The notes below the pieces were generated by a model. The model did not search any database. It worked only from the letters and a program-made list of their open reading frames with translations, and was not told the origin of the DNA. Of a DNA stretch of 47,800 nucleotides, positions 1-39,190 are shown piece after piece. The position numbers were made by a program, and so were the translations under genes. The DNA comes from a virus, in UHGV virus genome UHGV-0066790; one strand, given 5' to 3'. How positions within the stretch are numbered: position 1 is the first letter of the stretch; each line of letters begins with the position of its first letter.

Positions 1-432
1 CTGAAAGATGAAGAAGGCGGTGAAAAGGCCGACCTGCGGGGTGCCAACCTGCGGGATGCCAACCTGTGGGGTGCCGACCTGCGGGGTGCCGACCTGCGGG
101 GGGCCAACCTGCGGGATGCCAACCTGCGGGGTGCCAACCTGCGGGATGCCAACCTGTGGGGTGCCGACCTGTGGGGGGCCAACCTGCGGGGTGCCGACGG
201 TAAAGTCCTCTCTTTCGGACCTATCGGTTCCCGACAGGGAATCACATATGTGACCAAGACCGACCAAATTATCCATATTCGATGTGGTTGTTTCTATGGT
301 ACGCTGGAAGAATTTACCGCGAAAGTTGAAGAAGAACATGGCGATTCTCAGCATGGGAAATCATACAAGGCGGCAATCGAGTTCATCAAGGCCCATGATG
401 CCGCTTGTTGGCAAGATGATGCTGAAAAATAG
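1..432 (+). CDS. Pentapeptide-repeat protein (5' end truncated by window)
   Basis: Frame 1 is open from nt 1. It translates as [20 protein letters not shown], about 12 tandem A(D/N)LXX pentapeptides encoded by 15-bp DNA repeats, then a non-repeat C-terminal domain. The track ORF 250..432 is only the tail of this frame. Confidence 0.7.
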
Positions 433-15218: not shown

Positions 15219-17027
15219 TCAGTACCCGAATGCGCTGTCTGCTTGCGCAGTTTGATTACGAAGTGCCGGAACCACTCCTTGGGCCATCCCTTCCGCATCC
15301 GTAGCCTGTGTGTAGACCTTGACCTCACCCACATGGGTGGTTGACGTCATCTGACGCGAATTGTTGACGTTGCTCACGCTTCCCGGACGCGCATCCCCGG
15401 CGCGCACCTGCGGCGGCAGAATAGACGGGCGGACATCATCAACCCGCATCGAATCGGCGACGCCGCCGGGCTTGGACTCGGCCTTCGTTTCTTCCGGTCG
15501 CGAAGACTCATCGCCGCCGAGCCAGTCCTTGATCCAGTCGGGAAGCAAATTGTAGAGCTTCTGGGCTACCCAGTTCAGCATTTCGACAAGCACATCATTG
15601 ATTTTGGAGATGCCTCCCCAGATCGTTTTGAGGGCTTCGATAACGCCTTTTCCGTCCAGCGTAAGAACGGAGTTGAAGAGCTTGGCGACCCCCGAAAGGG
15701 CATCCCAGACGCCCCCGAGGATACTTTTGATGCCTTCCCAAATAGCCTTGAAACGAGCCCCGATTTCATCGCCAGTTCCGAACATCGACCAGAGCCCGGA
15801 AAGTGCAGATTCTCCGCCGTTGATGTAGGTAATGAGATCGTCGACAACCAGCGCGATCGCGCCGATGCCCGCAATCAACGGCGTAAACGGGGCAATCGCA
15901 GCCCATGCCGCCGTCGCCATCGCGGTCAGGGCCGGGAGCATGAGCGTCGTAATGACCCCGGCTAACGCCGTAAAGAAGACGATCACGAACTGCTTGTTTT
16001 CTTTCACCCACCCGAGGAGATCGCCGAGCAGGTTCGTCAAAAACGTGATCGCAGGGGAGACGGTGCTGGCGAAAAGGGCTGAGATGGCCTCCCATGCGTC
16101 ATTGAGCCGCTGCTGCGCCTCCCGTTGCTTCTTCGCGTTTTCGATGTCCTGCTTGCTGTAGATGGCTTGAGCCTTCTGGACTTTCAGAAGATCCTCAATC
16201 CCTTTGCGGCCCTTGAGGATGAGCGGGATGGTTTTTTCGTCGAAGCCGATCTGCGTGAGGATCGAGGTCGCCTTCTGGCGGCCGATTTTTGACGTGGCGT
16301 CGGAGAGACGAAGGAGTCCTTCTTCAAAGGAAACGGCCTTCCCTTTCGCATCCGTGAAGCTCACCCCTAGGTCTTTGGTCGCGTCCTTAAGCGGCCCGGA
16401 GTCGTGCAAAATGAGATCCTGCATCCAGTCGCCCAAATCCATGAACCGTGTCGAAAGCTCTTCGGCGTCAACCCCAGCGGCGGCTGCCGTCCGTTGCCAT
16501 GCCTGCCAATCTTCAATGCTCATGCCGAGCGCATCCGAAGTCTTCTCAATAGCCTGAGCCTGCTCGTAATACTGCGCTATGGAGCTTTTCAGGATTGAGA
16601 CACCGCCGATGACTGCGAGGGCCTGCGCTGCCACGCTCTTGAGCCGTTCAAAGCCAAACGCGCCTTTGTCCGCCGCGTCTTCCAGCGAAACGCCCAATCT
16701 TTTCGCGGCGGCATCAAGGGCCTCAAGACGTTCTTTTGCCGCTCCGGTGCGGATAAGCTCCTCGCGCATCCGCTGATACTCTTTCGTAACCTCACTGATT
16801 TCGCGGCCTTTTTGCACGGCTTCCTCGAAGGCGGCTTGCAACGAAGAGGCGGCATCGGCAGACTGGCCAAGACCTTGGGCCCCCTTGACGCCTGCGTCAT
16901 ATGTCGCGCGCCCCGCGTCAACGGCTGCGGCCTGCACGCCGTCCAGTCCTTTTTGGGCGTTCTGCACTTGAGCTTTGAAAGCCCCTGCGGAGAGGATGAG
17001 GGAAACGACGAGTTCACCTGCGTTCAT
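15219..17027 (-). CDS. Tail tape measure protein
   Basis: 602 aa, Ala/Gln-rich coiled coil with a central hydrophobic segment (FVIVFFTALAGVITTLMLPALTAMATAAWAAIAPFTPLIAGIGAIALVV). Located after the chaperone. Confidence 0.8.
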   Translation of the reverse strand: MNAGELVVSLILSAGAFKAQVQNAQKGLDGVQAAAVDAGRATYDAGVKGAQGLGQSADAASSLQAAFEEAVQKGREISEVTKEYQRMREELIRTGAAKERLEALDAAAKRLGVSLEDAADKGAFGFERLKSVAAQALAVIGGVSILKSSIAQYYEQAQAIEKTSDALGMSIEDWQAWQRTAAAAGVDAEELSTRFMDLGDWMQDLILHDSGPLKDATKDLGVSFTDAKGKAVSFEEGLLRLSDATSKIGRQKATSILTQIGFDEKTIPLILKGRKGIEDLLKVQKAQAIYSKQDIENAKKQREAQQRLNDAWEAISALFASTVSPAITFLTNLLGDLLGWVKENKQFVIVFFTALAGVITTLMLPALTAMATAAWAAIAPFTPLIAGIGAIALVVDDLITYINGGESALSGLWSMFGTGDEIGARFKAIWEGIKSILGGVWDALSGVAKLFNSVLTLDGKGVIEALKTIWGGISKINDVLVEMLNWVAQKLYNLLPDWIKDWLGGDESSRPEETKAESKPGGVADSMRVDDVRPSILPPQVRAGDARPGSVSNVNNSRQMTSTTHVGEVKVYTQATDAEGMAQGVVPALRNQTAQADSAFGY

Positions 17028-17277
17028 GGAATTTGCTCCAGAGGCGTTGGTTGTGGCCGTCCACGGCGATGATTTCTAGCATCTCGTAAGCATCGGACAG
17101 GCCGTATACTGTCTGCATCTCGTGCAGCGTCGCGAGGTTCCGGCTTACCGGGATGCCGACGCATCCGGGGAGGTTTGCGTAGTCCCGGAGCCCGAGGGGT
17201 TGAGAATCTGCAACAGGCGGGAGGTCAAGTCCTCGCCGCCCTGCAAAAAATCCAGACAGACGGCGATGGCCTCCCAA
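17014..17277 (-). CDS. Tail assembly chaperone frameshift extension (GT-like)
   Basis: The -1 frame relative to G overlaps 17145..17277 and terminates inside the tape-measure start codon region (stop TGA within ATGAACGCAGGTGA). Confidence 0.5.
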   Translation of the reverse strand: MGGHRRLSGFFAGRRGLDLPPVADSQPLGLRDYANLPGCVGIPVSRNLATLHEMQTVYGLSDAYEMLEIIAVDGHNQRLWSKFHERR

Positions 17278-17654
17278 CGCAGGCGGTAGATCGTGCCCAC
17301 GTCCTCGACATGGGCGTCGAGGTTTTGCGGAGTGAGACGGATAGCATCATCGGGCTTTCCGGGGTTCGGGACGCGGTAGATTTGCCCGAGAAGCTCGTCA
17401 TAGAGCGGTTCGGCCTGTTCCCACCGGAGCCCCGAGAGTCCCCGGAGCCCGGCGGAAAGCAGCGCGGCGGTGTTCGATGACGCTGAAAGCGTTCGGATGT
17501 CGGCGGGCATCTCGGAACCGAAGACGGCGAGCAGCGCACGGGCGGCCCATTTTTCCAGCTTGGTGACGGGCATTTCCTTGACCTTGAAGGTCTTCCCGGC
17601 GTCGCGGCCCTTGTCAATGGAAATGATCTTTTCGTTGAGCATGACGGCCTCCAC
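17145..17654 (-). CDS. Tail assembly chaperone (G-like)
   Basis: Between the tube and tape measure genes. Contains the slippery sequence T TTT TTG. Confidence 0.6.
   Translation of the reverse strand: MEAVMLNEKIISIDKGRDAGKTFKVKEMPVTKLEKWAARALLAVFGSEMPADIRTLSASSNTAALLSAGLRGLSGLRWEQAEPLYDELLGQIYRVPNPGKPDDAIRLTPQNLDAHVEDVGTIYRLRWEAIAVCLDFLQGGEDLTSRLLQILNPSGSGTTQTSPDASASR
17244..17250 (-). promoter_or_regulatory. Programmed -1 ribosomal frameshift slippery heptamer
   Basis: Minus-strand GAT TTT TTG (T TTT TTG) lies in the G frame where the -1 ORF begins to overlap. Confidence 0.45.
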
Positions 17655-17657
17655 GGT

Positions 17658-18107
17658 TTAAAGCGGGCTCGCGGTCCACTGGTCGAAGGTGATGACGAAG
17701 GCGCTCGCTTGCAAGGTCTGAGCGGCGTTGGGGCTGGACTGCACGGAGGTGAGGCCGCCCCGCTTCCCGGTGATCTTCCGGTTGATGCTCGGCATGGCGA
17801 ACTCGGCATTGCAGAGCATCACTTCCCGGGCGGTTTCCTGATACGTCGCCCAATCTTCCATTATCTGACGGCTCGGGCTGTCCGCCGCGAGGGTGATTGT
17901 CACTTCTTTGTTGGTCGGGACCCAACCAAAAGAGGTATGCCCGTCAACGCCCTTTTCCGCGACGACTGGGGTATTCGTGGCGACGCTGACCATCGCGTCG
18001 GTGCTGAACCCCTCGATCTGCACGGGGCTGTCGTAGAGCCCGGGGACCGTCAGGAAAAGCGTGCAATTCGCCGCTGTAATCGTCATGTTGCCGAAGTTGT
18101 CAGCCAT
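17658..18107 (-). CDS. Tail tube protein
   Basis: 149 aa, immediately downstream of the sheath gene. Confidence 0.6.
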   Translation of the reverse strand: MADNFGNMTITAANCTLFLTVPGLYDSPVQIEGFSTDAMVSVATNTPVVAEKGVDGHTSFGWVPTNKEVTITLAADSPSRQIMEDWATYQETAREVMLCNAEFAMPSINRKITGKRGGLTSVQSSPNAAQTLQASAFVITFDQWTASPL

Positions 18108-18118
18108 GTTTTACCTCA

Positions 18119-19624
18119 TCACTGAATGGCCGTGGCGGGCATGACGATTTGCTGCACGCTGCCGCCGTCCATGTAGTAGAATTTGCATTCGGGGGACTGG
18201 CGCTGTCCGCGCACGGTCGCGCCGGGGTTCTTGACCTGCATATACCAGCCCTGCGTTTCGAGCGTCTGGGAAACGTCCAGCCCGATTTCCGCGAGGAGCT
18301 GCACCTTTTGGGTATTCGAAAGGGTCACTCCCGTGCGGATGGCCCCGAAGTCGAGAAACCGCGTGATGGTGTCGAGACAGGCGGTGCGGATCATGCCGTA
18401 GCCGCTCTCGTTATACGGGATGCAATTTACGGCCTTGAACAGATCAAGGAGGTTAAGCTGGAGACCGTCTTTGATGGCGATGGCGTCAAGGTAGGTGTCG
18501 AGCCAGCCCCATTTGCCGGAAACCTGCCCGTTCTGGAAAAACTTGAACTGACTTGAGGCCGTGGCGAAGTCCGCATAGCAGTTGTAGCCATTGGCGATCA
18601 GCGCATCATAGTTCTCGTCGTTGTCGCAGGTTACGGTAAGCCCTTCGCCTTGCTTGAAGGCGAAGGTGAGCCGTCCGTTCGTCTCTTCAAAGTTGATAGA
18701 GGCCGCCGTGCCCATGACCCACGCGGCGAGCTCAGGCGTGTTGAACACGGGAACCGTACCGTCGAGTTCGAGCACCTTGGCGATCTGATACCCCGCCGAG
18801 GCCGTGGAACCCGCGACCTGCGCGGCGTTGTCGGTATCCCACATCACATAGGCGAAACGGGTGTCATATCCGGCGCACCACTGGGCGAGCGCGATCTTGT
18901 CGTCAAGCTCTGGCTCCCATACCGTGGAGAACGTCACCCAATCGCGGGCGTACAGGAGCACGTTGGTCATGCAGTCGGGGAGCGTCTGGCCAGCCATGCC
19001 TACGGACTGGACGGCACCGGACTGTTCGGTGAGCAGAAGCAGTGCGCCGAGGTCGGTCCCGGCTTCCGGCGGCGTCGGAAAGGCCACGGCGGAACTTGCC
19101 CCGGTCGTCGGGCTGTCGATCTGGAACGCCCCGGTCTGGCTGGAGTACGTCACCTTCGCTCCGGTAGCGCCCGCAGTCGTGAGCGCTGTCTGGATCGCCT
19201 CCGCAACCTGCGAGAAGCTGGTCGCAGCGGACAAATCCACGGAGGAAAGCGTGTGCGGCGTGTTGTCGATGGAAATGACCATCGCGCCGTTGGTGACGGC
19301 CTGCAACACGGCGATATTGCCCGTATACTTCGCGCCGCGCAGCCATGCGCCCACGGCCTCGCCGTTGTACCGGGCAAAGAAAATCTTGTCCGGGAGGCTC
19401 GTCGTGTTCACGTAGCCGGAAAAGTACATGGAAGCCATGCCCGCCTCTTCCGAGAGCGAGCCGAAATAATTGGCCACGGCCTGCGCGCTGGCGAACTGAA
19501 CGACTCTACCTGCGGGCAAAAGCTCGGACTGCGAAAGCAGGAGCCCGGCGAAGGTCAGGCCCGGCGTGCCGCCTTCAATGATGCGGGGGATGATTTGAAC
19601 TAGTTTGTCGGCATTGACGCTCAT
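18119..19624 (-). CDS. Tail sheath protein
   Basis: 501 aa, sized and positioned like Mu gpL / DUF3383-type sheath proteins. Confidence 0.7.
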   Translation of the reverse strand: MSVNADKLVQIIPRIIEGGTPGLTFAGLLLSQSELLPAGRVVQFASAQAVANYFGSLSEEAGMASMYFSGYVNTTSLPDKIFFARYNGEAVGAWLRGAKYTGNIAVLQAVTNGAMVISIDNTPHTLSSVDLSAATSFSQVAEAIQTALTTAGATGAKVTYSSQTGAFQIDSPTTGASSAVAFPTPPEAGTDLGALLLLTEQSGAVQSVGMAGQTLPDCMTNVLLYARDWVTFSTVWEPELDDKIALAQWCAGYDTRFAYVMWDTDNAAQVAGSTASAGYQIAKVLELDGTVPVFNTPELAAWVMGTAASINFEETNGRLTFAFKQGEGLTVTCDNDENYDALIANGYNCYADFATASSQFKFFQNGQVSGKWGWLDTYLDAIAIKDGLQLNLLDLFKAVNCIPYNESGYGMIRTACLDTITRFLDFGAIRTGVTLSNTQKVQLLAEIGLDVSQTLETQGWYMQVKNPGATVRGQRQSPECKFYYMDGGSVQQIVMPATAIQ

Positions 19625-22731: not shown

Positions 22732-22786
22732 TCCTTGGCAAGCCTGCATGAATCATATAAGACTTTACCAACGGAGGGATTCCCCC

Positions 22787-23098
22787 ATGCTGCTGTTCGA
22801 TGATGGGAAAAAGCTTGAAAAGGCCGTCGGCGAGGAAGCCGCAAAAGCCATCGTGGAAGTACTGGAACGCTTTGACGAGAGTCAAAGGAACGCCAGTGCC
22901 ACCAAGGGAGATCTGCGCGAAACGGAACTGCGGTTGCAAAAAGAAATTCGGGAATTGGACCTGAAAATGCAAGCGGAGGTCGAAAAAATTCGTGCTGAAG
23001 TGTTGAAGGTCAAGTATGATCTTTTGAAATGGCAAATCGCCATAGGGTTTGCCCTTGTCGCAGTTATGGCCAAGGGCTTCGGCTGGCTCGGATTCTAA
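22787..23098 (+). CDS. Coiled-coil membrane-anchored protein (DUF1640/XhlA-like)
   Basis: RBS GGAGGG. Coiled coil TKGDLRETELRLQKEIRELDLKMQAEVEKIRAEV then a C-terminal TM helix WQIAIGFALVAVMAKGFGWLGF. Confidence 0.45.
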   Translation: MLLFDDGKKLEKAVGEEAAKAIVEVLERFDESQRNASATKGDLRETELRLQKEIRELDLKMQAEVEKIRAEVLKVKYDLLKWQIAIGFALVAVMAKGFGWLGF

Positions 23099-23114: not shown

Positions 23115-23156
23115 TAGAAAAGGGGTGGCTTTAAGAGCCGCCCCTTTTTGTTTTTC
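23115..23156. terminator. Bidirectional rho-independent terminator
   Basis: GGGGTGGCTTTAAGAGCCGCCCC hairpin with GAAAA before and TTTTTGTTTTT after. Confidence 0.6.
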
Positions 23157-23214
23157 TGCCTCTCCCTTCTGTTACTGACGAGTTAAAAAAGATAAAACTT
23201 TTTTTTGAAAAAAT

Positions 23215-23278
23215 TGTTTATTTTTTCAAAAAATGGTGCTATTGTATTTTCAACGAAAGGGACAAAAGGAGAGTTCTC
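23215..23278 (+). promoter_or_regulatory. Promoter/leader P1 with conserved -10/leader motif
   Basis: AT-rich with inverted repeats TTTTTTTTGAAAAAA/TTTTTTCAAAAAA. TATTGT then TTTTCAACGAAAGGGACAAAAGGAGA is shared with P2 at 45273-45322. Confidence 0.4.
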
Positions 23279-23635
23279 ATGATAACCATCACCACAGCCA
23301 ACAACGAAACAACTCTTGAAAACGACAAGGCTTTCTGTGCATATCGTATCGAAACAGAAATCGATTTTGATGAAGATGGTTATGAAGTGGACGGAGAGCA
23401 ATATGTGCTCATCGAAAAGCTTTTTGTTCCCTCAGAGAATCGCGGAAACGGCATTGCCCGCCGCCTTCTTCGTGAAGCCGTCTCTCACGCTCGCGCTACT
23501 TACCCCGGAATGGCGATTCGGTTGGTAGCTGAACCTCTGGATGCCGATACAGATATGGATCGGCTGGTGGCCTTTTATGAAAGCGAAGGTTTTGATGTGA
23601 TCGAAGCTGGCGAAATCGTAGTAATGGAACACTAA
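23279..23635 (+). CDS. Small GNAT-fold acetyltransferase-like protein
   Basis: 118 aa with an acetyl-CoA motif-A-like segment ENRGNGIARRLLREAV. Low GC relative to the flanks. Confidence 0.5.
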   Translation: MITITTANNETTLENDKAFCAYRIETEIDFDEDGYEVDGEQYVLIEKLFVPSENRGNGIARRLLREAVSHARATYPGMAIRLVAEPLDADTDMDRLVAFYESEGFDVIEAGEIVVMEH

Positions 23636-23655: not shown

Positions 23656-23826
23656 ATGACCCGCTATTCTATCCTGCTCACGACTGGCACAACGGGAACC
23701 ATCGATACCGAACAGCATCTTGAAGAGGGCATGGAAGTAGTCATCACCTTGCACGATGAAAACGGAAACAGAACGCAGGAAACCGGACTCATCGCTGAAA
23801 TTCTTGACGAAGAATTTTTAGGGTAA
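23656..23826 (+). CDS. Small hypothetical protein (56 aa)
   Basis: RBS AAAGGAGTAAGAC then ATG. MTRYSILLTTGTTGTIDTEQHLEEGMEVVITLHDENGNRTQETGLIAEILDEEFLG. Below the track's 60-aa cutoff. Confidence 0.4.
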   Translation: MTRYSILLTTGTTGTIDTEQHLEEGMEVVITLHDENGNRTQETGLIAEILDEEFLG

Positions 23827-23848: not shown

Positions 23849-24349
23849 ATGAAGCTGTACCACGGAAGCTTGATTGAACATCTGGCTATCTCTAACTCAG
23901 GAACAGGGTTAGGGTATAACTTCGGTGCGGTGTTCTTTGCCCGTACTTACGGACATGCAAAGGAATACGGAAATTACGTCTACCAGTGCGAAATAGACAT
24001 CGAGGACATCTTCTTGAACGAGGATCTCCCGTATCTTGAAGATGGCGCTGCTGGAACGGCTCTACGTGAAGTTATGGCAGAGCGCGGTATAGACGAAAAG
24101 TATTTTGATCTCTGCTGGTATGCCGTGGTTGAAGAGAAAATTGGTTATCAAGATGAAGACTGGGTAAACCTCCTCAACATGGATGACGATGACGCAAGTT
24201 GGGAGGCTCAGGCCATGCGGATCGCCTTTGCCCGTAAGCTCGGCTTCAAGGCTGTTGAAATGGATGACGAATGCGGCAGCATTGCGGTTCTTCCCGAGTT
24301 CATAAAGCTGGAAGCGGCAACGGAGGAATACGATGAAGAGGAAGACTAA
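23849..24349 (+). CDS. LYHGS-motif protein (DUF3990-like putative ART-fold) with acidic tail
   Basis: N-terminus MKLYHGS...GYNFGAVFFARTYGHAKEYG resembles the DUF3990 signature. The C-terminus is Asp/Glu-rich (MDDDDASWE...EEYDEEED). Confidence 0.45.
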   Translation: MKLYHGSLIEHLAISNSGTGLGYNFGAVFFARTYGHAKEYGNYVYQCEIDIEDIFLNEDLPYLEDGAAGTALREVMAERGIDEKYFDLCWYAVVEEKIGYQDEDWVNLLNMDDDDASWEAQAMRIAFARKLGFKAVEMDDECGSIAVLPEFIKLEAATEEYDEEED

Positions 24350-25724
24350 GATAGACATCGACGATCTTATCGATTTCAGTTCAAAGCTGGTGAACTCGAA
24401 TTCCAGCGTCGGTATTCGCTTGTCGTCGGGTGCCGCGCTCGCCCTTCCGTACCTGTCCACGAGGACATGTCTTGCGGCAGGGATTTCTATGCCGCTGGAT
24501 ACGGCAAACGGGGCCAAGGATGTGGGAAAGGTAAGTGCTCTATACAAAAAACTCGAAGAAGGGGAGGAAGGAGAGAAAGCAGATACAGAGGCGGCATTGA
24601 AGAAAATCCGTAAAACAGGATTTGCCAGAAAAACAGAGTCTGTCGACAGACGGATTCGTCAACTGCTCATCCCTAAAGACGTACCCTCTGGGTATGTCTC
24701 TTTGTCTCCCCTCCCCTCCATTGGACTTTCCGTTTTGCTGTTAGGAGCCGTTACAAGGCATAATCAAGATGTCTTTTCAAAAAAGAAGGAAGGTATCAAA
24801 ATTCGACGGGCACATCTCGCTTTGGGCGGGGCAAACCCTCAGAATCTAGGATACGCTGCGTCCAAAAAGGCGATACAATATCCTGTTTTTCTTTCTACAC
24901 CCAAATCCGTGCGCGGAAATGCCAGCCGTCAGGCGTCAGGAAAGGGAACTTACCTGATCCTTTCCAATCTCTTTGTGCAAACGGCAAACATCTTGACGAA
25001 TTATACTATGCTCAACGGCGCGCCCCTCTTTGCAGCATGGGGGATGGGACATGCACTGGAGCGCGAGATGCATGGTCCCAAAGTTACCGGAGTATGCCTT
25101 GTTGTGCATAGCATCGAACCCCTTGGGGAGCATGAAACCGCTATTTTCGAGCCTAGCCAAAGAGTAGGAGCGGCTTTTACTTTTGAAAAATCCCGTAACG
25201 GGAGCGACTACGCAAAAGGCTCCACACATCTCTCTTTGCAGCCCGGTGCAACGGGGCATATACGGGTGAGCCTTATCTTTGAACTGTCGGAAGCCCTGCA
25301 TTCCGTACCGAACGCCGTGGATCTTTTCTTGAACTTCGGAAAGTTCTCCGGTGGGCTGATCACTTCATACGACGCCCCGGCTTTGCATGATGACCGCTCT
25401 ACGCTTCTAGAGTGCATTCCCGCCGGGAAAGTTGTTTTGGATCGGCGCGACGTTATGAGCCCTGGAAACCCCATTGAACAGCTTGTAACCGCGATAGGAA
25501 CGTACAGCGGAAAATGGCTGTCCGCAACGAATATCGGTTTTTCAGCAATCACAGACTTTCAAGTTCGCGGAGGGGCACGGAACGGGTGCCTCCATGCTTT
25601 TGCGGAGCCGCTGATCGGCATTACAGAATACGTCTCTACTGAAAAGAGGATACACGGGTATTTCTGGCGCAGCCAGTGGGAAGAAGATAGCTTTTTGATG
25701 AGGGGAGATTCAACAAATGAATGA
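24333..25724 (+). CDS. Large protein of unknown function (463 aa)
   Basis: Overlaps the upstream stop by 17 nt and the downstream start by 8 nt (ATGAATGA). No recognisable catalytic motif. Confidence 0.55.
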   Translation: MKRKTKIDIDDLIDFSSKLVNSNSSVGIRLSSGAALALPYLSTRTCLAAGISMPLDTANGAKDVGKVSALYKKLEEGEEGEKADTEAALKKIRKTGFARKTESVDRRIRQLLIPKDVPSGYVSLSPLPSIGLSVLLLGAVTRHNQDVFSKKKEGIKIRRAHLALGGANPQNLGYAASKKAIQYPVFLSTPKSVRGNASRQASGKGTYLILSNLFVQTANILTNYTMLNGAPLFAAWGMGHALEREMHGPKVTGVCLVVHSIEPLGEHETAIFEPSQRVGAAFTFEKSRNGSDYAKGSTHLSLQPGATGHIRVSLIFELSEALHSVPNAVDLFLNFGKFSGGLITSYDAPALHDDRSTLLECIPAGKVVLDRRDVMSPGNPIEQLVTAIGTYSGKWLSATNIGFSAITDFQVRGGARNGCLHAFAEPLIGITEYVSTEKRIHGYFWRSQWEEDSFLMRGDSTNE

Positions 25725-25938
25725 TGCACAAGAAAAAAAGCAGGGGGGACGCCGTAAAGGATCTGGACGTAAAAAAAAGGTTGAAAATCGTGCAACAGTA
25801 AAGACTGTATCTATGCCGGATCATGTCTGGGAACGGCTGAACGATGTATGTACAGATAGGGGTATCCTACGCTCACAGGTAGTACGGGAAGCAGTCGAGA
25901 TGTGGCTGGACGCAAATATACAGCAGCTTGGAAAATGA
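25717..25938 (+). CDS. Ribbon-helix-helix (CopG/ParD-like) DNA-binding protein
   Basis: Basic N-terminal arm (KKQGGRRKGSGRKKK), then beta-strand and helix TVKTVSMPDHVWERLNDVCTDRGILRSQVVREAVEMWL. Confidence 0.55.
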   Translation: MNDAQEKKQGGRRKGSGRKKKVENRATVKTVSMPDHVWERLNDVCTDRGILRSQVVREAVEMWLDANIQQLGK

Positions 25939-25951
25939 CGCCTGACTACGT

Positions 25952-25992
25952 AAAGAAAGCCCCAACCGCCTGTTTAACGGTTGGGGCTTTCG
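25952..25992. terminator. Bidirectional terminator between the island and the capsid gene
   Basis: AAAGAAA, then GCCCCAACCGCCTGTTTAACGGTTGGGGC hairpin, then TTTCG. Confidence 0.55.
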
Positions 25993-26011: not shown

Positions 26012-27025
26012 CTAGGCTCCAGTCATTTGCGCAAAGGCAAAGGGCATGAGCACGATACCGCCGTAGGTGGTGCCGACGAACTTCTGACGGAAGCTGGACA
26101 GGTCGGGCACGACGCGTCCAGCACGCATCTTTTCTCCGAAGGCCAGCGTGCCGGATCGCTGCCCGTTCACTTCGGGGGCGATGAGGAACATGGTTTCCCC
26201 GGCGGTCATGCTGTGCAGCTCGGGGACGGTCACGATGTCAATGCGGGTGAAGTACCGCTTCAACATATCCAGCACGGACACGTTGAAATCGGTAGCCGCG
26301 CCGAGGCGAACGGCCAGTTCGGGGGAGAGGCAGAGCTTGAGGGGCGTGTCTTTGTCAATAAGGCCGCTGGACTGCTCGGAAAGCTGTGCGAACAGGGCGA
26401 GGACGTCGTTGTAGATTTGCACCGTGGTCTTGTCGGCCCATTTCGTGGAGCCGCCCGTGCCCGTGGCCCCTGCGGTGATCGCAGCAGGGAGGTTCGGATC
26501 GTTGAGGATGCCGTAGATTTCCTTCCCGGCGACGCCGAGCAGGTAGAAACGGTTCTGGTCGATGTCGATGACGTTGGCGGCCGCACGCTGCTTGGAGGCA
26601 GCGAGGTTGACTTTCGCCGTGCTCGACATGTCCACTTCAAAGTCTCCGTAGGTGATGGACGTCTGGAAGACGTACTGCACGCGGGTTTGCCATTCGGAGT
26701 TCACGCCCGAAGTCGTGCCGTTGGCATAGTCGGAATACGGCTCGGTCTTTCCGGTCATTTCGTCCACGCGCCACTTCATGTACGGGGTCGTCCAATCGCC
26801 CTTCTTCTCTTCACCGAAGATTTCACGGGCGCGCCGGGGCGCGGTCAGGATTTCGATGACCATCGGGTCGATATACGCCAGAAGCTCGGCGGGGACGGTC
26901 GTGTTCGGAGTAGTGATGAGCGCGGCGTCCTGCGCAATGCGGGCGCGGTTCTCCGGAGTTGCCCACATGCGGGCGCCCGGGAAGATAAAGCCGTAGCGCT
27001 TGGCCTGTTCAAAAGTCGGATTCAT
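26012..27025 (-). CDS. Major capsid protein
   Basis: 337 aa, last gene of the portal-scaffold-capsid operon. Confidence 0.65.
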   Translation of the reverse strand: MNPTFEQAKRYGFIFPGARMWATPENRARIAQDAALITTPNTTVPAELLAYIDPMVIEILTAPRRAREIFGEEKKGDWTTPYMKWRVDEMTGKTEPYSDYANGTTSGVNSEWQTRVQYVFQTSITYGDFEVDMSSTAKVNLAASKQRAAANVIDIDQNRFYLLGVAGKEIYGILNDPNLPAAITAGATGTGGSTKWADKTTVQIYNDVLALFAQLSEQSSGLIDKDTPLKLCLSPELAVRLGAATDFNVSVLDMLKRYFTRIDIVTVPELHSMTAGETMFLIAPEVNGQRSGTLAFGEKMRAGRVVPDLSSFRQKFVGTTYGGIVLMPFAFAQMTGA

Positions 27026-38787: not shown

Positions 38788-39058
38788 GCCAGAGCCGCAG
38801 TGCGGTCACAGCTACATCGAGGGCTTCGTCGCGGATACGCTCCGGGGTTTCGTGCTCAACGGCGTGTACAAGCTCACGGTACTCCCCCCCGATAACGCCG
38901 AGCGCATGGTATTTGCCCTCCGCGAAAACAGGGTGCTTCCCGCGTGCTTCCGACAGCCGCTGCATGAGTGCCGCAAGAGCCTGTTCACCAAGTATCGTGA
39001 TGTCGATGTTATGCACTGGTAGCCTCCTTGTGGGCGTCAAGCTCGTCGGTATAGGCAC
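38756..39058 (-). CDS. MazG-like nucleotide pyrophosphohydrolase-fold protein (putative)
   Basis: GKHPVFAEGKYHALGVIGGEYRELVHAVEHE...RIRDEALDVAVTALRL resembles the MazG/NTP-PPase helical core. Confidence 0.35.
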   Translation of the reverse strand: MPIPTSLTPTRRLPVHNIDITILGEQALAALMQRLSEARGKHPVFAEGKYHALGVIGGEYRELVHAVEHETPERIRDEALDVAVTALRLWLGEHEVGAHE

Positions 39059-39190
39059 AGACGCCGTACCCGTGATGAGTTGCCCTGTCGCAGTCGTGGA
39101 CGGGGTAGGCGTAGCGGATCATGAGGAGGCGGCTAACTCCGGTGTAGGCTGTGATGGCCTTCCAGCCGAGCAGCAATTTCCGTTCATTCA

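What the first reader, a model, noticed from the sequence alone, without database searches (positions are those of the whole stretch)
24333..25938. 463-aa unknown protein translationally coupled to a C-terminal RHH regulator
The large protein overlaps both neighbours (17-nt and 8-nt overlaps, ATGAATGA) and is followed by a CopG/ParD-like ribbon-helix-helix protein with a basic arm. That is the arrangement of autoregulated cargo cassettes such as antitoxin/aca-like regulators. I could identify no catalytic motif.
Basis: inference. Interest (0 to 1): 0.6.

Follow-up and report, generated by a model that had tools for sequence, protein, structure and literature searches.

The report
Phage Cas8f–Cas5f fusion, likely anti-CRISPR
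The "unknown" 463-aa protein is a phage-borne fusion of two subunits of the host's type I-F CRISPR complex, missing the domain that recruits the DNA-cutting nuclease; it sits in an anti-CRISPR operon of a Bilophila wadsworthia prophage and most likely sabotages the host's CRISPR complex from within.

Summary
The ORFs and overlaps are as described: 24333-25724 (463 aa), 25717-25938 (73 aa), with 17-nt and 8-nt (ATGAATGA) overlaps.

The 463-aa protein is identifiable:
- aa 8-190 match the N-terminal domain of Cas8f/Csy1, including the GGxxPQN PAM/wedge motif.
- aa 206-462 match a complete Cas5f/Csy2.
- By alignment, the roughly 150-170-aa C-terminal helical bundle of Cas8f, which recruits Cas2/3, is deleted.

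No other cas gene or CRISPR array is in the window. The gene lies in a low-GC operon: GNAT, 56-aa ORF, AcrIF11-family ADP-ribosyltransferase, fusion, RHH. The operon is flanked by a palindrome-bearing promoter and a hairpin, inside a Mu-like Bilophila wadsworthia prophage.

B. wadsworthia has a native I-F system. Nine metagenomic spacers with its repeat match the window perfectly, and 18 of 22 protospacers carry the CC PAM.

Both halves of the fusion are under purifying selection (dN/dS 0.1-0.2).

Best reading: a Cas-derived anti-CRISPR "poison subunit" (like AcrIB3/AcrIB4) with an Aca-like RHH regulator. Activity is untested.

Orphan cas8f and cas5f hits that are very likely this gene already appear in Katz et al.'s supplementary table. 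It is therefore a new variant of a known kind, not a new category.

The parts
23117..23149 (+). Intrinsic-terminator-like hairpin ending the upstream gene (116-aa coiled-coil/TM protein). It marks the 5' boundary of the cassette.
   Evidence: 15-bp stem followed by a T-run, inverted repeat I5.
23198..23260 (+). AT-rich promoter/operator region. It holds palindromes TTTTTTGAAAAAA (23201-23213) and TTTTTTCAAAAAA (23221-23233) 20 nt apart, a third partial copy at 23247-23258, and a sigma-70-like TTGAAA-18-AAAAAT. Candidate operator for the RHH protein.
   Evidence: up to one mismatch: 3 matches against 0.12 expected; both exact matches lie here. The region is identical in the reduced cassette L104, where it drives AcrIF11 directly.
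23279..23635 (+). GNAT acetyltransferase (118 aa), first gene of the operon. Possible additional anti-defence enzyme; untested.
   Evidence: Pfam Acetyltransf_7 E=1.2e-7, above the gathering score. Absent from cassette variants L099 and L104.
23656..23826 (+). 56-aa ORF with no significant family match.
   Evidence: Called as a gene in all related loci.
23849..24349 (+). AcrIF11-family anti-CRISPR ADP-ribosyltransferase (166 aa).
   Evidence: NCBIfam NF052490 E=2.5e-30, 106.2 bits (cutoff 50). PDB 8dwq E=5e-6 and 6kyf AcrF11 E=1e-3. Precomputed Pfam PF26151.
24333..24902 (+). Fusion protein aa 1-190: Cas8f (Csy1) N-terminal domain. It includes GGANPQN (aa 165-171, nt 24825-24845), which aligns with P. 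aeruginosa Cas8f GGTKPQN 244-250 (K247 wedge, N250 PAM contact and AcrIF11 target).
   Evidence: PADLOC Cas8f PDLC01425 E=2.7e-20, aa 10-193 against profile 27-216 of 401. BLASTP to Cas8f P0013 aa 16-210 of 382, 38% identity, E=1e-36. BLASTP to native B. wadsworthia Cas8f aa 41-252 of 420, 35% identity, E=5e-29. Motif alignment.
24903..24947 (+). Fusion protein aa 191-205: linker (KSVRGNASRQASGKG). This is the junction where the Cas8f helical bundle is missing.
   Evidence: Alignments. dN/dS about 0.7-1.0 here, against 0.1-0.2 in the flanking domains (few sites).
24948..25724 (+). Fusion protein aa 206-463: complete Cas5f (Csy2) domain.
   Evidence: Pfam Cas_Csy2 41.1 bits (gathering score 25). 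PADLOC Cas5f E=1.8e-21, profile 1-249 of 254. 41% identity to Cas5f P0009 aa 2-273 of 278, E=1e-57. 40% identity to native B. wadsworthia Cas5f aa 2-281 of 285. Profile hits to solved I-F Cas5 chains, 8w1p_H E=8e-13 and 9vtp_G E=8e-15.
25717..25938 (+). 73-aa ribbon-helix-helix protein with a basic N-terminal arm. Candidate Aca (anti-CRISPR-associated repressor).
   Evidence: It is the last gene of the operon in every cassette variant, including L104, where the fusion gene is deleted. Only close homologs (at least 83% identity) were found.
25955..25991 (+). 14-bp-stem hairpin between the convergent RHH gene and the major-capsid gene (26012-27025, minus strand). Likely terminator and 3' boundary of the cassette.
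   Evidence: minimum free energy -28.3 kcal/mol, z = -4.3, 0 of 200 shuffles fold as well.
23301..23332 (+). Protospacer inside the cassette (GNAT gene), matched 32/32 by a metagenomic Bilophila-type I-F spacer. Its flank is CA, not the CC PAM.

Best explanation
[quoted passage not shown] It consists of the Cas8f N-terminal domain, a roughly 15-aa linker and a full Cas5f. [quoted passage not shown] The gene is the fourth in a five-gene anti-type-I-F operon of a Mu-like Bilophila wadsworthia prophage: GNAT, p56, AcrIF11 homolog, fusion, RHH.

Proposed mechanism (inferred, not shown):
1. The Cas5f moiety binds the crRNA 5' handle and the last Cas7f subunit, as native Cas5f does.
2. The tethered Cas8f N-terminal domain occupies the Cas8f docking site, so native full-length Cas8f is excluded.
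3. Host Cascade (Csy) complexes therefore assemble around a 'poison' large-subunit module that cannot lock the R-loop or recruit and activate Cas2/3.
4. This protects the phage or prophage from interference. It would complement AcrIF11, which enzymatically inactivates complexes that are already assembled.

The 73-aa RHH protein is most likely the operon's Aca-type autorepressor. It would act on the paired T6-S-A6 palindromes that overlap the promoter.
For: SHOWN - identity of the protein:
- Cas8f N-terminal domain plus Cas5f.
- The Cas8f homology stops at about P190, which aligns with about P270 of P. aeruginosa Cas8f. The following linker (aa 191-205) aligns loosely with the hinge just before the bundle. 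The helical bundle, which runs from about R282 and holds the Cas2/3-recruiting residues R390, N393 and L395, has no counterpart.
- In native loci cas8f and cas5f are adjacent and overlap by 4 nt. A single in-frame deletion would therefore produce this fusion.

SHOWN - orphan status:
- tblastn with native B. wadsworthia Cas2/3, Cas7f, Cas6f and Cas1 finds nothing in the window.
- There is no array and no I-F repeat.

SHOWN - anti-CRISPR context:
- The upstream, overlapping gene is an AcrIF11-family enzyme.
- The cassette is a low-GC insert (0.48 against 0.56-0.66) between virion genes.
- It occurs in at least two different phage backbones, and its gene order is shuffled in the 59%-identical homolog.

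SHOWN - the host system exists and targets this phage:
- B. wadsworthia ATCC 49260 has cas2/3-cas8f-cas5f-cas7f-cas6f-cas1 plus an array.
- Of 954 metagenomic spacers flanked by that repeat, 9 match the window 100% and 22 match at 28/32 or better.
- 18 of those 22 protospacers have the I-F 5'-CC PAM (binomial P about 4e-17).

SHOWN - a functional, maintained gene:
- The ORF is intact on more than 300 contigs.
- dN/dS is 0.19-0.22 (86%-identity pairs) and 0.10-0.14 (59%-identity pair) in both domains.
- The viral Cas5f domain is only 36-43% identical to native Cas5f proteins, which are 47-90% identical to one another. That is a long, neofunctionalised branch.

PRECEDENT:
- AcrIB3 (a Cas5 homolog, 38% identity) and AcrIB4 (Cas8b C-terminal domain) assemble into defective Cascade.
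- Orphan viral cas genes cluster in anti-defence loci. Katz et al. Table S3 lists adjacent cas8f and cas5f hits in a B. wadsworthia 3_1_6 provirus.

RHH as Aca:
- The promoter and RHH gene are constant while the cargo varies.
- The palindromes are over-represented.
- Aca14 provides an RHH Aca precedent.
Against: No activity data exist for this protein.

Loss of the helical bundle is not by itself proof of inactivity. The phage ICP1 compact I-F system has a Cas8f without that bundle and still cleaves DNA with Cas2/3. P. aeruginosa Cas2/3 can even act on ICP1 Csy-bound targets (PMC10161043).

All strongly conserved Cas8f N-terminal-domain motifs, including GGANPQN (PAM/wedge loop), are retained under purifying selection. 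A pure 'dead plug' would not obviously need them. They may be structural, or DNA/PAM contact may matter for the function.

Both AlphaFold2 models were of low confidence (pLDDT 31 and 39). The domain boundary therefore rests on sequence alignment to P. aeruginosa Cas8f, which is distant.

The RHH domain call is below Pfam thresholds, and the operator is low-complexity AT-rich sequence.
Confidence: 0.6

Rival explanations
1. The protein is an anti-CRISPR but acts by sequestration, not by completing a defective complex. The fusion would titrate crRNA (through Cas5f binding of the 5' handle), or Cas7f/Cas6f, into dead-end subcomplexes, so that fewer functional Cascades form.
For: - The Cas5f domain is complete and conserved.
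- RNA anti-CRISPRs of type I-F work by forming aberrant subcomplexes (PMC10651486, abstract).
- The 59%-identical homolog has a solitary I-F repeat about 97 nt upstream of its start. That repeat could feed such a subcomplex.
Against: - Sequestration needs stoichiometric excess over crRNA and Cas7f.
- There is no solitary repeat in the window itself.
- It does not explain why the Cas8f N-terminal domain is retained and conserved.
Confidence: 0.15
2. The protein is a functional, streamlined large-subunit module, not an inhibitor. As with the helical-bundle-less Cas8f of phage ICP1, the fusion would assemble with host Cas7f, Cas6f and crRNA into an active or DNA-binding complex that benefits the prophage. 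Examples would be a nuclease-independent CRISPRi-like block of competitors, or tolerance of self-targeting spacers while keeping surveillance.
For: - The ICP1 precedent.
- The PAM/wedge motif and other N-terminal-domain motifs are retained under purifying selection.
- Katz et al. discuss that viral cas genes might at first stimulate immunity for lysogens.
Against: - The gene is co-transcribed with, and overlaps, an AcrIF11 homolog. AcrIF11's known action is to ADP-ribosylate the Cas8f asparagine equivalent to N171 of the fusion and so abolish DNA binding.
- The phage encodes no array, Cas7f, Cas6f or Cas2/3.
- The phage itself is heavily targeted by the native system, so inhibition is the obvious selective need.
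Confidence: 0.12
3. One reading: a toxin-antitoxin-like or generic 'cargo plus RHH antitoxin' module of unknown function, unrelated to CRISPR.
For: - An RHH protein is translationally coupled downstream of a larger ORF.
- Related loci carry a HicB-like gene nearby.
Against: - The large protein is unambiguously Cas8f plus Cas5f.
- The neighbour is AcrIF11.
- The RHH persists when the large gene is deleted (L104). That is not expected for an antitoxin whose toxin is gone, but it is expected for an operon regulator.
Confidence: 0.03
4. A decaying remnant of a captured cas locus with no current function.
For: - Deletion variants exist (L102-L104).
- It fails the NCBIfam Csy2 equivalog cutoff (38.6 against 154.1 bits).
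Against: - The ORF is intact in hundreds of contigs and in seven lineages down to 59% identity.
- dN/dS is 0.1-0.2 in both domains.
- The start codon and the operon position are conserved.
Confidence: 0.03

Closest known systems
AcrIB3 and AcrIB4 (Listeria; Katz et al. [quoted passage not shown]
   Same: - Phage or prophage-encoded homologs of Cascade subunits (Cas5; Cas8b C-terminal domain), about 38% identical to the host protein.
- Encoded outside cas operons, in acr loci.
- They act as faulty subunits of the interference complex.
- The present protein shows the same degree of divergence (35-43%), the same orphan status and the same kind of context.
   Different: - Different subtype (I-F, not I-B).
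- Two subunits are fused into one polypeptide.
- The defect is a clean excision of the Cas8f helical bundle, not loss of a Cas5 hook (AcrIB3) or retention of only the Cas8 C-terminus (AcrIB4).
- Activity has not been tested.
- Adjacent cas8f and cas5f hits from a B. wadsworthia 3_1_6 provirus appear as two rows in their Table S3. In the main text of the preprint I found no mention of Bilophila, and only one type I-F passage, which concerns AcrIF3.
AcrIF3 (P. aeruginosa phage anti-CRISPR)
   Same: It targets the same step of type I-F immunity, which is Cas2/3 recruitment through the Cas8f helical bundle.
   Different: AcrIF3 is a small structural mimic of the helical bundle. It sequesters Cas2/3 and has no detectable sequence homology to Cas8f. 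The present protein is the converse: everything in the Cas8f-Cas5f module except the helical bundle, with clear sequence homology.
Natural Cas8/Cas5 fusions of type I-F3 CRISPR-associated transposons (e.g. V. cholerae Tn6677, PDB 6pif/6vbw; V. parahaemolyticus 9vtp)
   Same: Same domain order, with Cas8 N-terminal and Cas5 C-terminal in one chain. The C-terminal region matches by profile (E=8e-15; PADLOC Cas85f).
   Different: - I-F3 fusions are 640-695 aa and keep a helical bundle (text).
- They are encoded with cas7, cas6, tniQ and tnsABC.
- The viral protein is 463 aa and has no such neighbours.
- It is much closer to canonical Desulfovibrionaceae I-F proteins (about 40% identity) than to I-F3. 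It is therefore an independent fusion.
Compact Cas8f of the phage ICP1 type I-F system
   Same: [quoted passage not shown]
   Different: ICP1 encodes a complete system (Cas7f, Cas6f, Cas1, Cas2/3 and arrays), and its Cas8f and Cas5f are separate proteins. That system is an active nuclease system, not an inhibitor.
Aca14 (RHH-type anti-CRISPR-associated regulator; NAR 2026, PMC13551039)
   Same: - A small RHH protein in the aca position of acr operons.
- It recognises an AT-rich inverted repeat overlapping the promoter.
- One Aca14-controlled operon encodes AcrIF6 plus a Cas5f homolog.
   Different: The present RHH has only very close homologs and an unusual basic N-terminal arm. Binding is untested.
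AcrIF11 (neighbouring gene)
   Same: The 166-aa upstream ORF passes the NCBIfam equivalog cutoff for AcrIF11.
   Different: It is 166 aa, a little longer than the 142-position NCBIfam profile. It is encoded in a Desulfovibrionaceae phage, not in a Pseudomonas element.

Membership tests
Cas5f / Csy2 | Sequence match to the family model over its whole length | tested here: met
   Pfam PF09614 scores 41.1 bits (gathering score 25). PADLOC Cas5f PDLC01349 covers profile 1-249 of 254, E=1.8e-21. 41% identity over aa 2-273 of a 278-aa Cas5f.
Cas5f / Csy2 | Equivalog-level score (same function as bona fide Csy2) | tested here: not met
   NCBIfam TIGR02565 scores 38.6 bits against a cutoff of 154.1. 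The viral domain is 36-43% identical to native Cas5f proteins, which are 47-90% identical to each other.
[quoted passage not shown] | Encoded in an operon with cas7f, cas6f, cas2/3 and cas1, next to a CRISPR array | tested here: not met
   tblastn with native B. wadsworthia Cas2/3, Cas7f, Cas6f and Cas1 finds no hit in the window. No array or I-F repeat is present. The neighbours are acr and virion genes.
Cas8f / Csy1 | N-terminal domain with the conserved GGxxPQN (wedge/PAM) motif and the R.RQ..P...Y motif | tested here: met
   Invariant columns shared with 8 Cas8f proteins. The motif GG[SA][NK]PQN is found in all 52 Cas8f ORFs extracted from the 77 related genome loci, noting that the ORFs were picked by requiring GG..PQN. 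It aligns to P. aeruginosa GGTKPQN 244-250.
Cas8f / Csy1 | C-terminal helical bundle (Cas11-like; R-loop lock and Cas2/3 recruitment helix) | tested here: not met
   Homology ends at viral aa ~190, which corresponds to Cas8f P0013 aa 210 of 382, B. wadsworthia aa 252 of 420, and about 270 of 434 in P. aeruginosa. Cas5f starts at aa 206. This rests on alignment only, because the structure models were too poor to confirm it.
Type I-F3 (CAST) Cas8/Cas5 fusion | Single chain with Cas8 at the N-terminus and Cas5 at the C-terminus | tested here: met
Type I-F3 (CAST) Cas8/Cas5 fusion | Length of about 640 aa with the helical bundle retained; encoded with tniQ/tnsABC and cas7/cas6 | tested here: not met
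   The protein is 463 aa. No such genes lie within 6 kb on either side in 8 loci, and no cas7/cas6 homolog is anywhere in the window.
Cas-derived anti-CRISPR ('viral cas', AcrIB3/AcrIB4 type) | Homolog of a Cascade subunit on a mobile element, outside any cas operon or array | tested here: met
   Katz Table S3 lists adjacent cas8f and cas5f hits in a B. wadsworthia 3_1_6 provirus.
Cas-derived anti-CRISPR ('viral cas', AcrIB3/AcrIB4 type) | Located beside known acr or aca genes | tested here: met
   It overlaps an AcrIF11-family gene and is followed by an RHH regulator.
Cas-derived anti-CRISPR ('viral cas', AcrIB3/AcrIB4 type) | Inhibits the cognate CRISPR-Cas system; incorporated into a defective complex | not testable with these tools
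   This needs interference assays and pull-downs. Only indirect support exists: the phage is targeted by the native I-F system.
Aca (anti-CRISPR-associated transcriptional regulator) | Small DNA-binding protein encoded in the same operon as a known acr gene, usually as the last gene | tested here: met
   It is the last gene of the operon that contains AcrIF11, and it is retained in all cassette variants. The RHH call itself is weak (Pfam E=0.018, below the gathering score; PHROG repressor E=1e-4).
Aca (anti-CRISPR-associated transcriptional regulator) | Inverted repeats overlapping the operon promoter | tested here: met
   Two 13-bp palindromes lie 20 nt apart and overlap the sigma-70-like hexamers. 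With up to one mismatch there are 3 matches against 0.12 expected, and the two exact ones lie here.
Aca (anti-CRISPR-associated transcriptional regulator) | Binds those repeats and represses the acr promoter | not testable with these tools
   An EMSA or a reporter assay is required.
Aca14 (RHH Aca family) | Sequence homology to WP_005725436.1 | not tested
   The sequence is not held in any tool available here, and the paper's supplements are not held.
AcrIF11 (for the upstream neighbour 23849-24349) | Score above the curated equivalog cutoff | tested here: met
   NF052490 scores 106.2 bits against a cutoff of 50. PDB 8dwq and 6kyf also match.
Type II toxin-antitoxin module | A toxin-family protein paired with an RHH antitoxin, the two lost or kept together | tested here: not met
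   The large protein has no toxin-domain match. The RHH persists without it in L104.

The most novel reading that the evidence does not exclude
The fusion may be more than an off-switch. Its PAM/wedge motif and whole Cas8f N-terminal domain are kept under purifying selection, while only the nuclease-recruiting bundle is removed. It could therefore convert the host's Cascade into a nuclease-free, PAM- and crRNA-guided DNA-binding complex. On this reading the prophage domesticates the host's spacer repertoire. Self-targeting spacers would become harmless, yet competing phages could still be bound or silenced in a CRISPRi-like way. That would be a new mode of virus-host CRISPR conflict: re-wiring, not inhibition.
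Probability: 0.1. Interest if true: 0.85.

Novelty: new variant of a known kind. Interest (0 to 1): 0.66.

Why it matters
If confirmed, this would be, as far as I can find in the library searched, the first Cas-derived anti-CRISPR against a type I-F system. It would also be the first built as a two-subunit fusion.

The fusion carries its own truncated large subunit, so the host cannot complement it. That gives a very direct picture of how an acr gene evolves from cas genes: a single in-frame deletion across the cas8f-cas5f junction removes exactly the nuclease-recruitment domain.

It would provide a genetically encoded way to turn I-F Cascades into nuclease-dead complexes.

It is also common. 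The protein was seen on hundreds of human-gut contigs, in prophages of Bilophila wadsworthia, a bile-tolerant pathobiont, and I found no match among about 50,700 deposited phage genomes. The locus further offers an AcrIF11 homolog outside the Proteobacteria, a candidate GNAT anti-defence enzyme, and a candidate RHH-type Aca with a simple operator.

Tried and rejected
1. Structure prediction. Both AlphaFold2 jobs gave unusable models: single sequence pLDDT 31 and a 48-sequence alignment pLDDT 39. Foldseek on the poor model still returned only I-F Cas5f and Cas8/5 chains as its top 25 hits, but TM-scores were 0.14-0.25. I use this only as weak corroboration.

2. Mapping the Cas8f part onto solved structures by sequence. 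phmmer and a Cas8f profile found no Cas8f chain in the PDB. I instead aligned the PA14 Cas8f sequence, which I recalled from memory. I verified it against 26 residue identities quoted in Rollins et al., then aligned it with 52 Cas8f ORFs. The equivalent of N111 is not confidently placed.

3. A CRISPR array or solitary repeat in the window. None was found.

4. Spacer matches from the first 830 spacers in the genome loci. None matched the window. Matches appeared only after the metagenome scan for the exact Bilophila repeat.

5. Isolated repeats in those metagenome loci as possible phage solitary repeats. None of the loci checked carries a cassette gene, so most are probably host CRISPR loci. 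I dropped this line.

6. Deposited phage genomes. There is no tblastn match among 50,697 records.

7. Widening the family with a profile search. This gave few new sequences. The exhaustive representative search shows only one cluster with both halves.

8. RHH homologs. Only copies at 83% identity or more were found, so comparative operator analysis beyond these cassettes was not possible. The Aca14 sequence was unobtainable.

9. The published Nature version of Katz et al. (PMC11991930) is not held. I cannot exclude that it or its figures depict this locus.

10. The toxin-antitoxin and pseudogene readings were rejected (see rivals).


Full report
**1.

The window has an ATG ORF at 24333-25724 (463 aa) and one at 25717-25938 (73 aa).
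- The 463-aa ORF overlaps the upstream ORF 23849-24349 by 17 nt.
- It overlaps the 73-aa ORF by 8 nt, and the sequence there reads ATGAATGA.
- Both starts are preceded by purine-rich Shine-Dalgarno-like runs.

The 73-aa protein has a lysine/arginine-rich arm followed by a ribbon-helix-helix-like segment. The domain call is weak:
- Pfam RHH_1 E=0.018 and RHH_3 E=0.035, both under the gathering scores.
- PHROG 876 'transcriptional repressor' E=1e-4.

- TTTTTTGAAAAAA (23201-23213) and its reverse complement TTTTTTCAAAAAA (23221-23233) lie 20 nt apart.
- They overlap a sigma-70-like TTGAAA-18-AAAAAT.
- They are the only exact matches in the window. With up to one mismatch there are 3 matches, against 0.12 expected.

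**2. The large protein is not unknown**

Family searches identify both halves.
- Pfam gives Cas_Csy2 above its gathering score.
- PADLOC gives Cas8f for aa 10-193 (E=2.7e-20, profile positions 27-216 of 401).
- PADLOC gives Cas5f for aa 208-453 (E=1.8e-21, profile 1-249 of 254).

Pairwise comparisons agree.
- aa 8-190 align with aa 16-210 of a 382-aa Cas8f (38% identity, E=1e-36).
- aa 206-462 align with aa 2-273 of a 278-aa Cas5f (41% identity, E=1e-57).

Both reference proteins come from canonical type I-F loci with the order cas2/3-cas8f-cas5f-cas7f-cas6f-cas1, where cas8f and cas5f are adjacent and overlap by 4 nt. A profile of the C-terminal half hits solved I-F Cas5 chains (8w1p_H E=8e-13; 9vtp_G E=8e-15).

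The protein is therefore Cas8f N-terminal domain, then a roughly 15-residue linker, then a complete Cas5f.

**3. What is missing**

P. aeruginosa Cas8f is the structural reference.

In a MAFFT alignment of that sequence, 52 Cas8f ORFs from related loci and the viral N-terminus:
- The conserved motif GG[SA][NK]PQN is present in all 52 extracted Cas8f ORFs. These ORFs were selected by requiring GG..PQN, so this count is partly built in.
- The viral motif is GGANPQN, aa 165-171. It aligns with P. aeruginosa GGTKPQN 244-250.
- That P. aeruginosa motif contains the K247 strand-splitting wedge and N250. N250 contacts the PAM and is the residue ADP-ribosylated by AcrIF11.
- Viral Cas8f homology ends about 20 residues later, at P190, which aligns with about P270 in P. 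aeruginosa.
- The linker aligns loosely with the hinge, and Cas5f begins after it.

The C-terminal helical bundle has no counterpart in the viral protein.
- In P. aeruginosa it runs from about R282 to residue 434.
- It stabilises the R-loop and carries the Cas2/3-recruitment helix (R390, N393, L395).
- Against the native B. wadsworthia proteins, the viral protein covers Cas8f aa 41-252 of 420 and Cas5f aa 2-281 of 285.

One in-frame deletion across the cas8f-cas5f junction would generate this architecture.

Structure prediction could not confirm the boundary. pLDDT was 31 and 39. Foldseek on the poor model returned only I-F Cas5f or Cas8/5 chains among its top 25 hits, with low TM-scores.

**4. 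It is an orphan inside an anti-CRISPR operon**

Native B. wadsworthia Cas2/3, Cas7f, Cas6f and Cas1 have no tblastn match in the window. There is no array and no I-F repeat.

The gene lies in a 2.8-kb plus-strand insert.
- The insert has 48% GC, against 56% for the window and about 60% for native cas genes.
- It sits between minus-strand virion genes: major capsid PF09950, cement, Mu F and portal.

The insert reads, in order:
- Terminator (23117-23149).
- Palindrome-bearing promoter.
- GNAT acetyltransferase.
- 56-aa ORF.
- A 166-aa protein that passes the NCBIfam equivalog cutoff for AcrIF11 (106 bits against 50) and matches PDB 8dwq and 6kyf.
- The fusion.
- The RHH gene.
- A strong hairpin (25955-25991, z = -4.3).

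The same cassette is found elsewhere.
- It occurs in a second, unrelated phage backbone, between Bro-N/pRha and Bro/ANT genes (L006 and L008).
- In a 59%-identical lineage the gene order is shuffled: HicB-like, fusion, a different 56-aa RHH, then AcrIF11 or GNAT.

Within the window's own phage type there are three cargo states behind an identical promoter and in front of the same RHH gene:
- GNAT-p56-AcrIF11-fusion-RHH (the window).
- AcrIF11-fusion-RHH (L099 and L100).
- AcrIF11-RHH, with only a 136-nt remnant of the fusion (L104).

A constant regulator with variable cargo is the hallmark of acr-aca loci. An RHH Aca family (Aca14), binding AT-rich inverted repeats over the promoter, was described in 2026.

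**5. The target system exists and attacks this phage**

The identical protein is annotated at NCBI as 'type I-F CRISPR-associated protein Csy2 [Bilophila wadsworthia]' and was seen on 326 contigs.

B. wadsworthia ATCC 49260 carries a complete I-F locus. Its array has the repeat GTTATCCGCCGTGTAGGCGGTTTAGAAG.

A metagenome scan for that exact repeat returned 110 stretches, mostly from human gut. I extracted 954 unique spacers from the 80 fetched loci plus the Desulfovibrionaceae-type genome loci L016-L031.
- Nine are 100% identical to the window.
- Twenty-two match at 28/32 or better.
- Eighteen of the 22 protospacers have the type I-F 5'-CC PAM. The background CC frequency is 7.6%, giving P about 4e-17.

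The phage is thus under real type I-F pressure. That gives the cassette an obvious selective rationale.

**6. The gene is functional and has diverged from bona fide Cas proteins**

- Seven full-length lineages (100-59% identity) all keep the ORF intact.
- dN/dS against 86%-identical copies is 0.19-0.20 for the Cas8f part and 0.20-0.22 for the Cas5f part.
- dN/dS against the 59% copy is 0.14 and 0.10.
- The linker is near neutral, though it has few sites.
- The viral Cas5f domain is 36-43% identical to Desulfovibrionaceae and Oxalobacter Cas5f proteins, which share 47-90% identity with each other.
- It fails the Csy2 equivalog cutoff (38.6 against 154.1 bits).
- An exhaustive HMMER search of 1.84 billion representatives found 443 relatives. 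Only one cluster, this one, covers both halves. All other hits are Cas5f-only or Cas8f-only.

**7. Mechanism**

Shown:
- The domain composition.
- Loss of the bundle, by alignment only.
- Orphan status.
- The acr context.
- Targeting of the phage by the native system.
- Purifying selection on both domains.

Inferred: the fusion acts as a dominant-negative 'poison' module.
- Cas5f anchors it on the crRNA 5' handle and the Cas7f backbone.
- The tethered Cas8f N-terminal domain blocks docking of native Cas8f, so the host cannot complement the defect.
- The resulting Cascade lacks the R-loop lock and the Cas2/3 docking helix.

This parallels AcrIB3 and AcrIB4, which are Cas5 and Cas8b-C-terminal-domain homologs that assemble into defective I-B Cascade. 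It is the mirror image of AcrIF3, which mimics only the helical bundle.

AcrIF11 would disable pre-existing complexes catalytically. The fusion would spoil newly assembled ones. That is a plausible division of labour for a temperate phage, but it is inference.

**8. Caveats**

- The ICP1 phage I-F system shows that a bundle-less Cas8f can still support Cas2/3-dependent cleavage. Loss of the bundle therefore does not prove inactivity.
- The PAM/wedge motif is retained under selection. The domain may still contact DNA, or the motif may be structural.
- These two points leave room for sequestration or 're-wiring' models (see rivals and the novel case).
- Binding of the RHH protein to the palindromes is untested, and the palindromes are low-complexity sequence.

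**9. Novelty**

The concept is known. Katz et al. predicted 358 orphan viral cas genes in anti-defence loci.
- Their Table S3 lists adjacent cas8f (16736-17317) and cas5f (17348-18115) hits in a B. wadsworthia 3_1_6 provirus.
- These are very likely this gene, recorded as two separate hits.
- The main text of the preprint does not mention Bilophila, and its only type I-F passage concerns AcrIF3.

An April 2026 review lists only AcrIB3, AcrIB4 and AcrVIA2 as Cas-homolog Acrs. I found no paper on this protein. The published Nature version is not held.

I therefore rate it a new variant of a known kind. It is a candidate first I-F Cas-derived Acr with a distinctive fused, bundle-less architecture. 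It is well supported by context but unproven.

Noticed in passing
L009 7877-7904, L010 7877-7904, L011 3134-3161, L012 30-57 (minus strand relative to the fusion gene): Loci carrying the 59%-identical fusion (P0007) have a solitary type I-F CRISPR repeat, CTTATCCGCCGCGTAGGTGGTTTAGAAG. It matches the B. wadsworthia array repeat at 25 of 28 positions and keeps the hairpin through a G-U pair. It lies about 97 nt upstream of the fusion's start codon. This is a candidate RNA anti-CRISPR (Racr-like) or a relic of gene capture. It is absent from the window and from L001-L008.
   Followed up: partly
window 23301-23332 (GNAT gene of the cassette): A metagenomic I-F spacer (locus L163) matches the anti-CRISPR cassette itself 32/32. 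The protospacer flank is CA, not the CC PAM, unlike 18 of the other 21 protospacers. This may be a PAM-escape variant.
   Followed up: no
window 18263-18808: Five of the 22 protospacers cluster within about 550 bp, and two pairs overlap (18263-18294 with 18279-18310; 18747-18778 with 18777-18808). All lie inside the 501-aa minus-strand ORF 18119-19624. A second overlapping pair lies at 39000-39059. These may be priming hotspots.
   Followed up: no
window 28-195: A tandem array of about 11 copies of a 15-nt unit (GCCAACCTGCGGGGT) lies at the window's start. One metagenomic I-F spacer (locus L166) matches this array in several registers, 30/32 at best.
   Followed up: no
window 23279-23635 and 23656-23826: A 118-aa GNAT acetyltransferase and a 56-aa ORF with no family match are the first two genes of the acr operon. 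They are missing from cassette variants L099, L100 and L104. The GNAT recalls the acetyltransferase anti-CRISPR AcrVA5. Both are candidate additional anti-defence genes.
   Followed up: partly
L006 4674-4844, L008 4674-4844, L009 9480-9650, L011 4737-4907: A second, unrelated 56-aa RHH protein (MPxEKKKTVGRPPRADKTQRVTIYLPQ...) also has a basic N-terminal arm. It sits in front of the acr genes in the other phage backbones, next to a canonical TTGACA promoter. The roughly 45-nt leader (GTTTTCAACGAAAGGG.ACAAAAGGAGA) just before the first acr gene is shared with the window.
   Followed up: partly
L102, L103, L104 (IMG/VR contigs): Related phages retain only N- or C-terminal stubs of the fusion gene. 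In L104 a 136-nt remnant lies between AcrIF11 and the RHH gene. The fusion is therefore gained and lost as a module.
   Followed up: partly
window 22748-23098: A 116-aa coiled-coil protein with a C-terminal hydrophobic segment (weak CCDC90-like match) lies on the plus strand just upstream of the cassette and is followed by its own terminator. Together with Bro-N genes it is part of a larger plus-strand accessory region in related phages.
   Followed up: no
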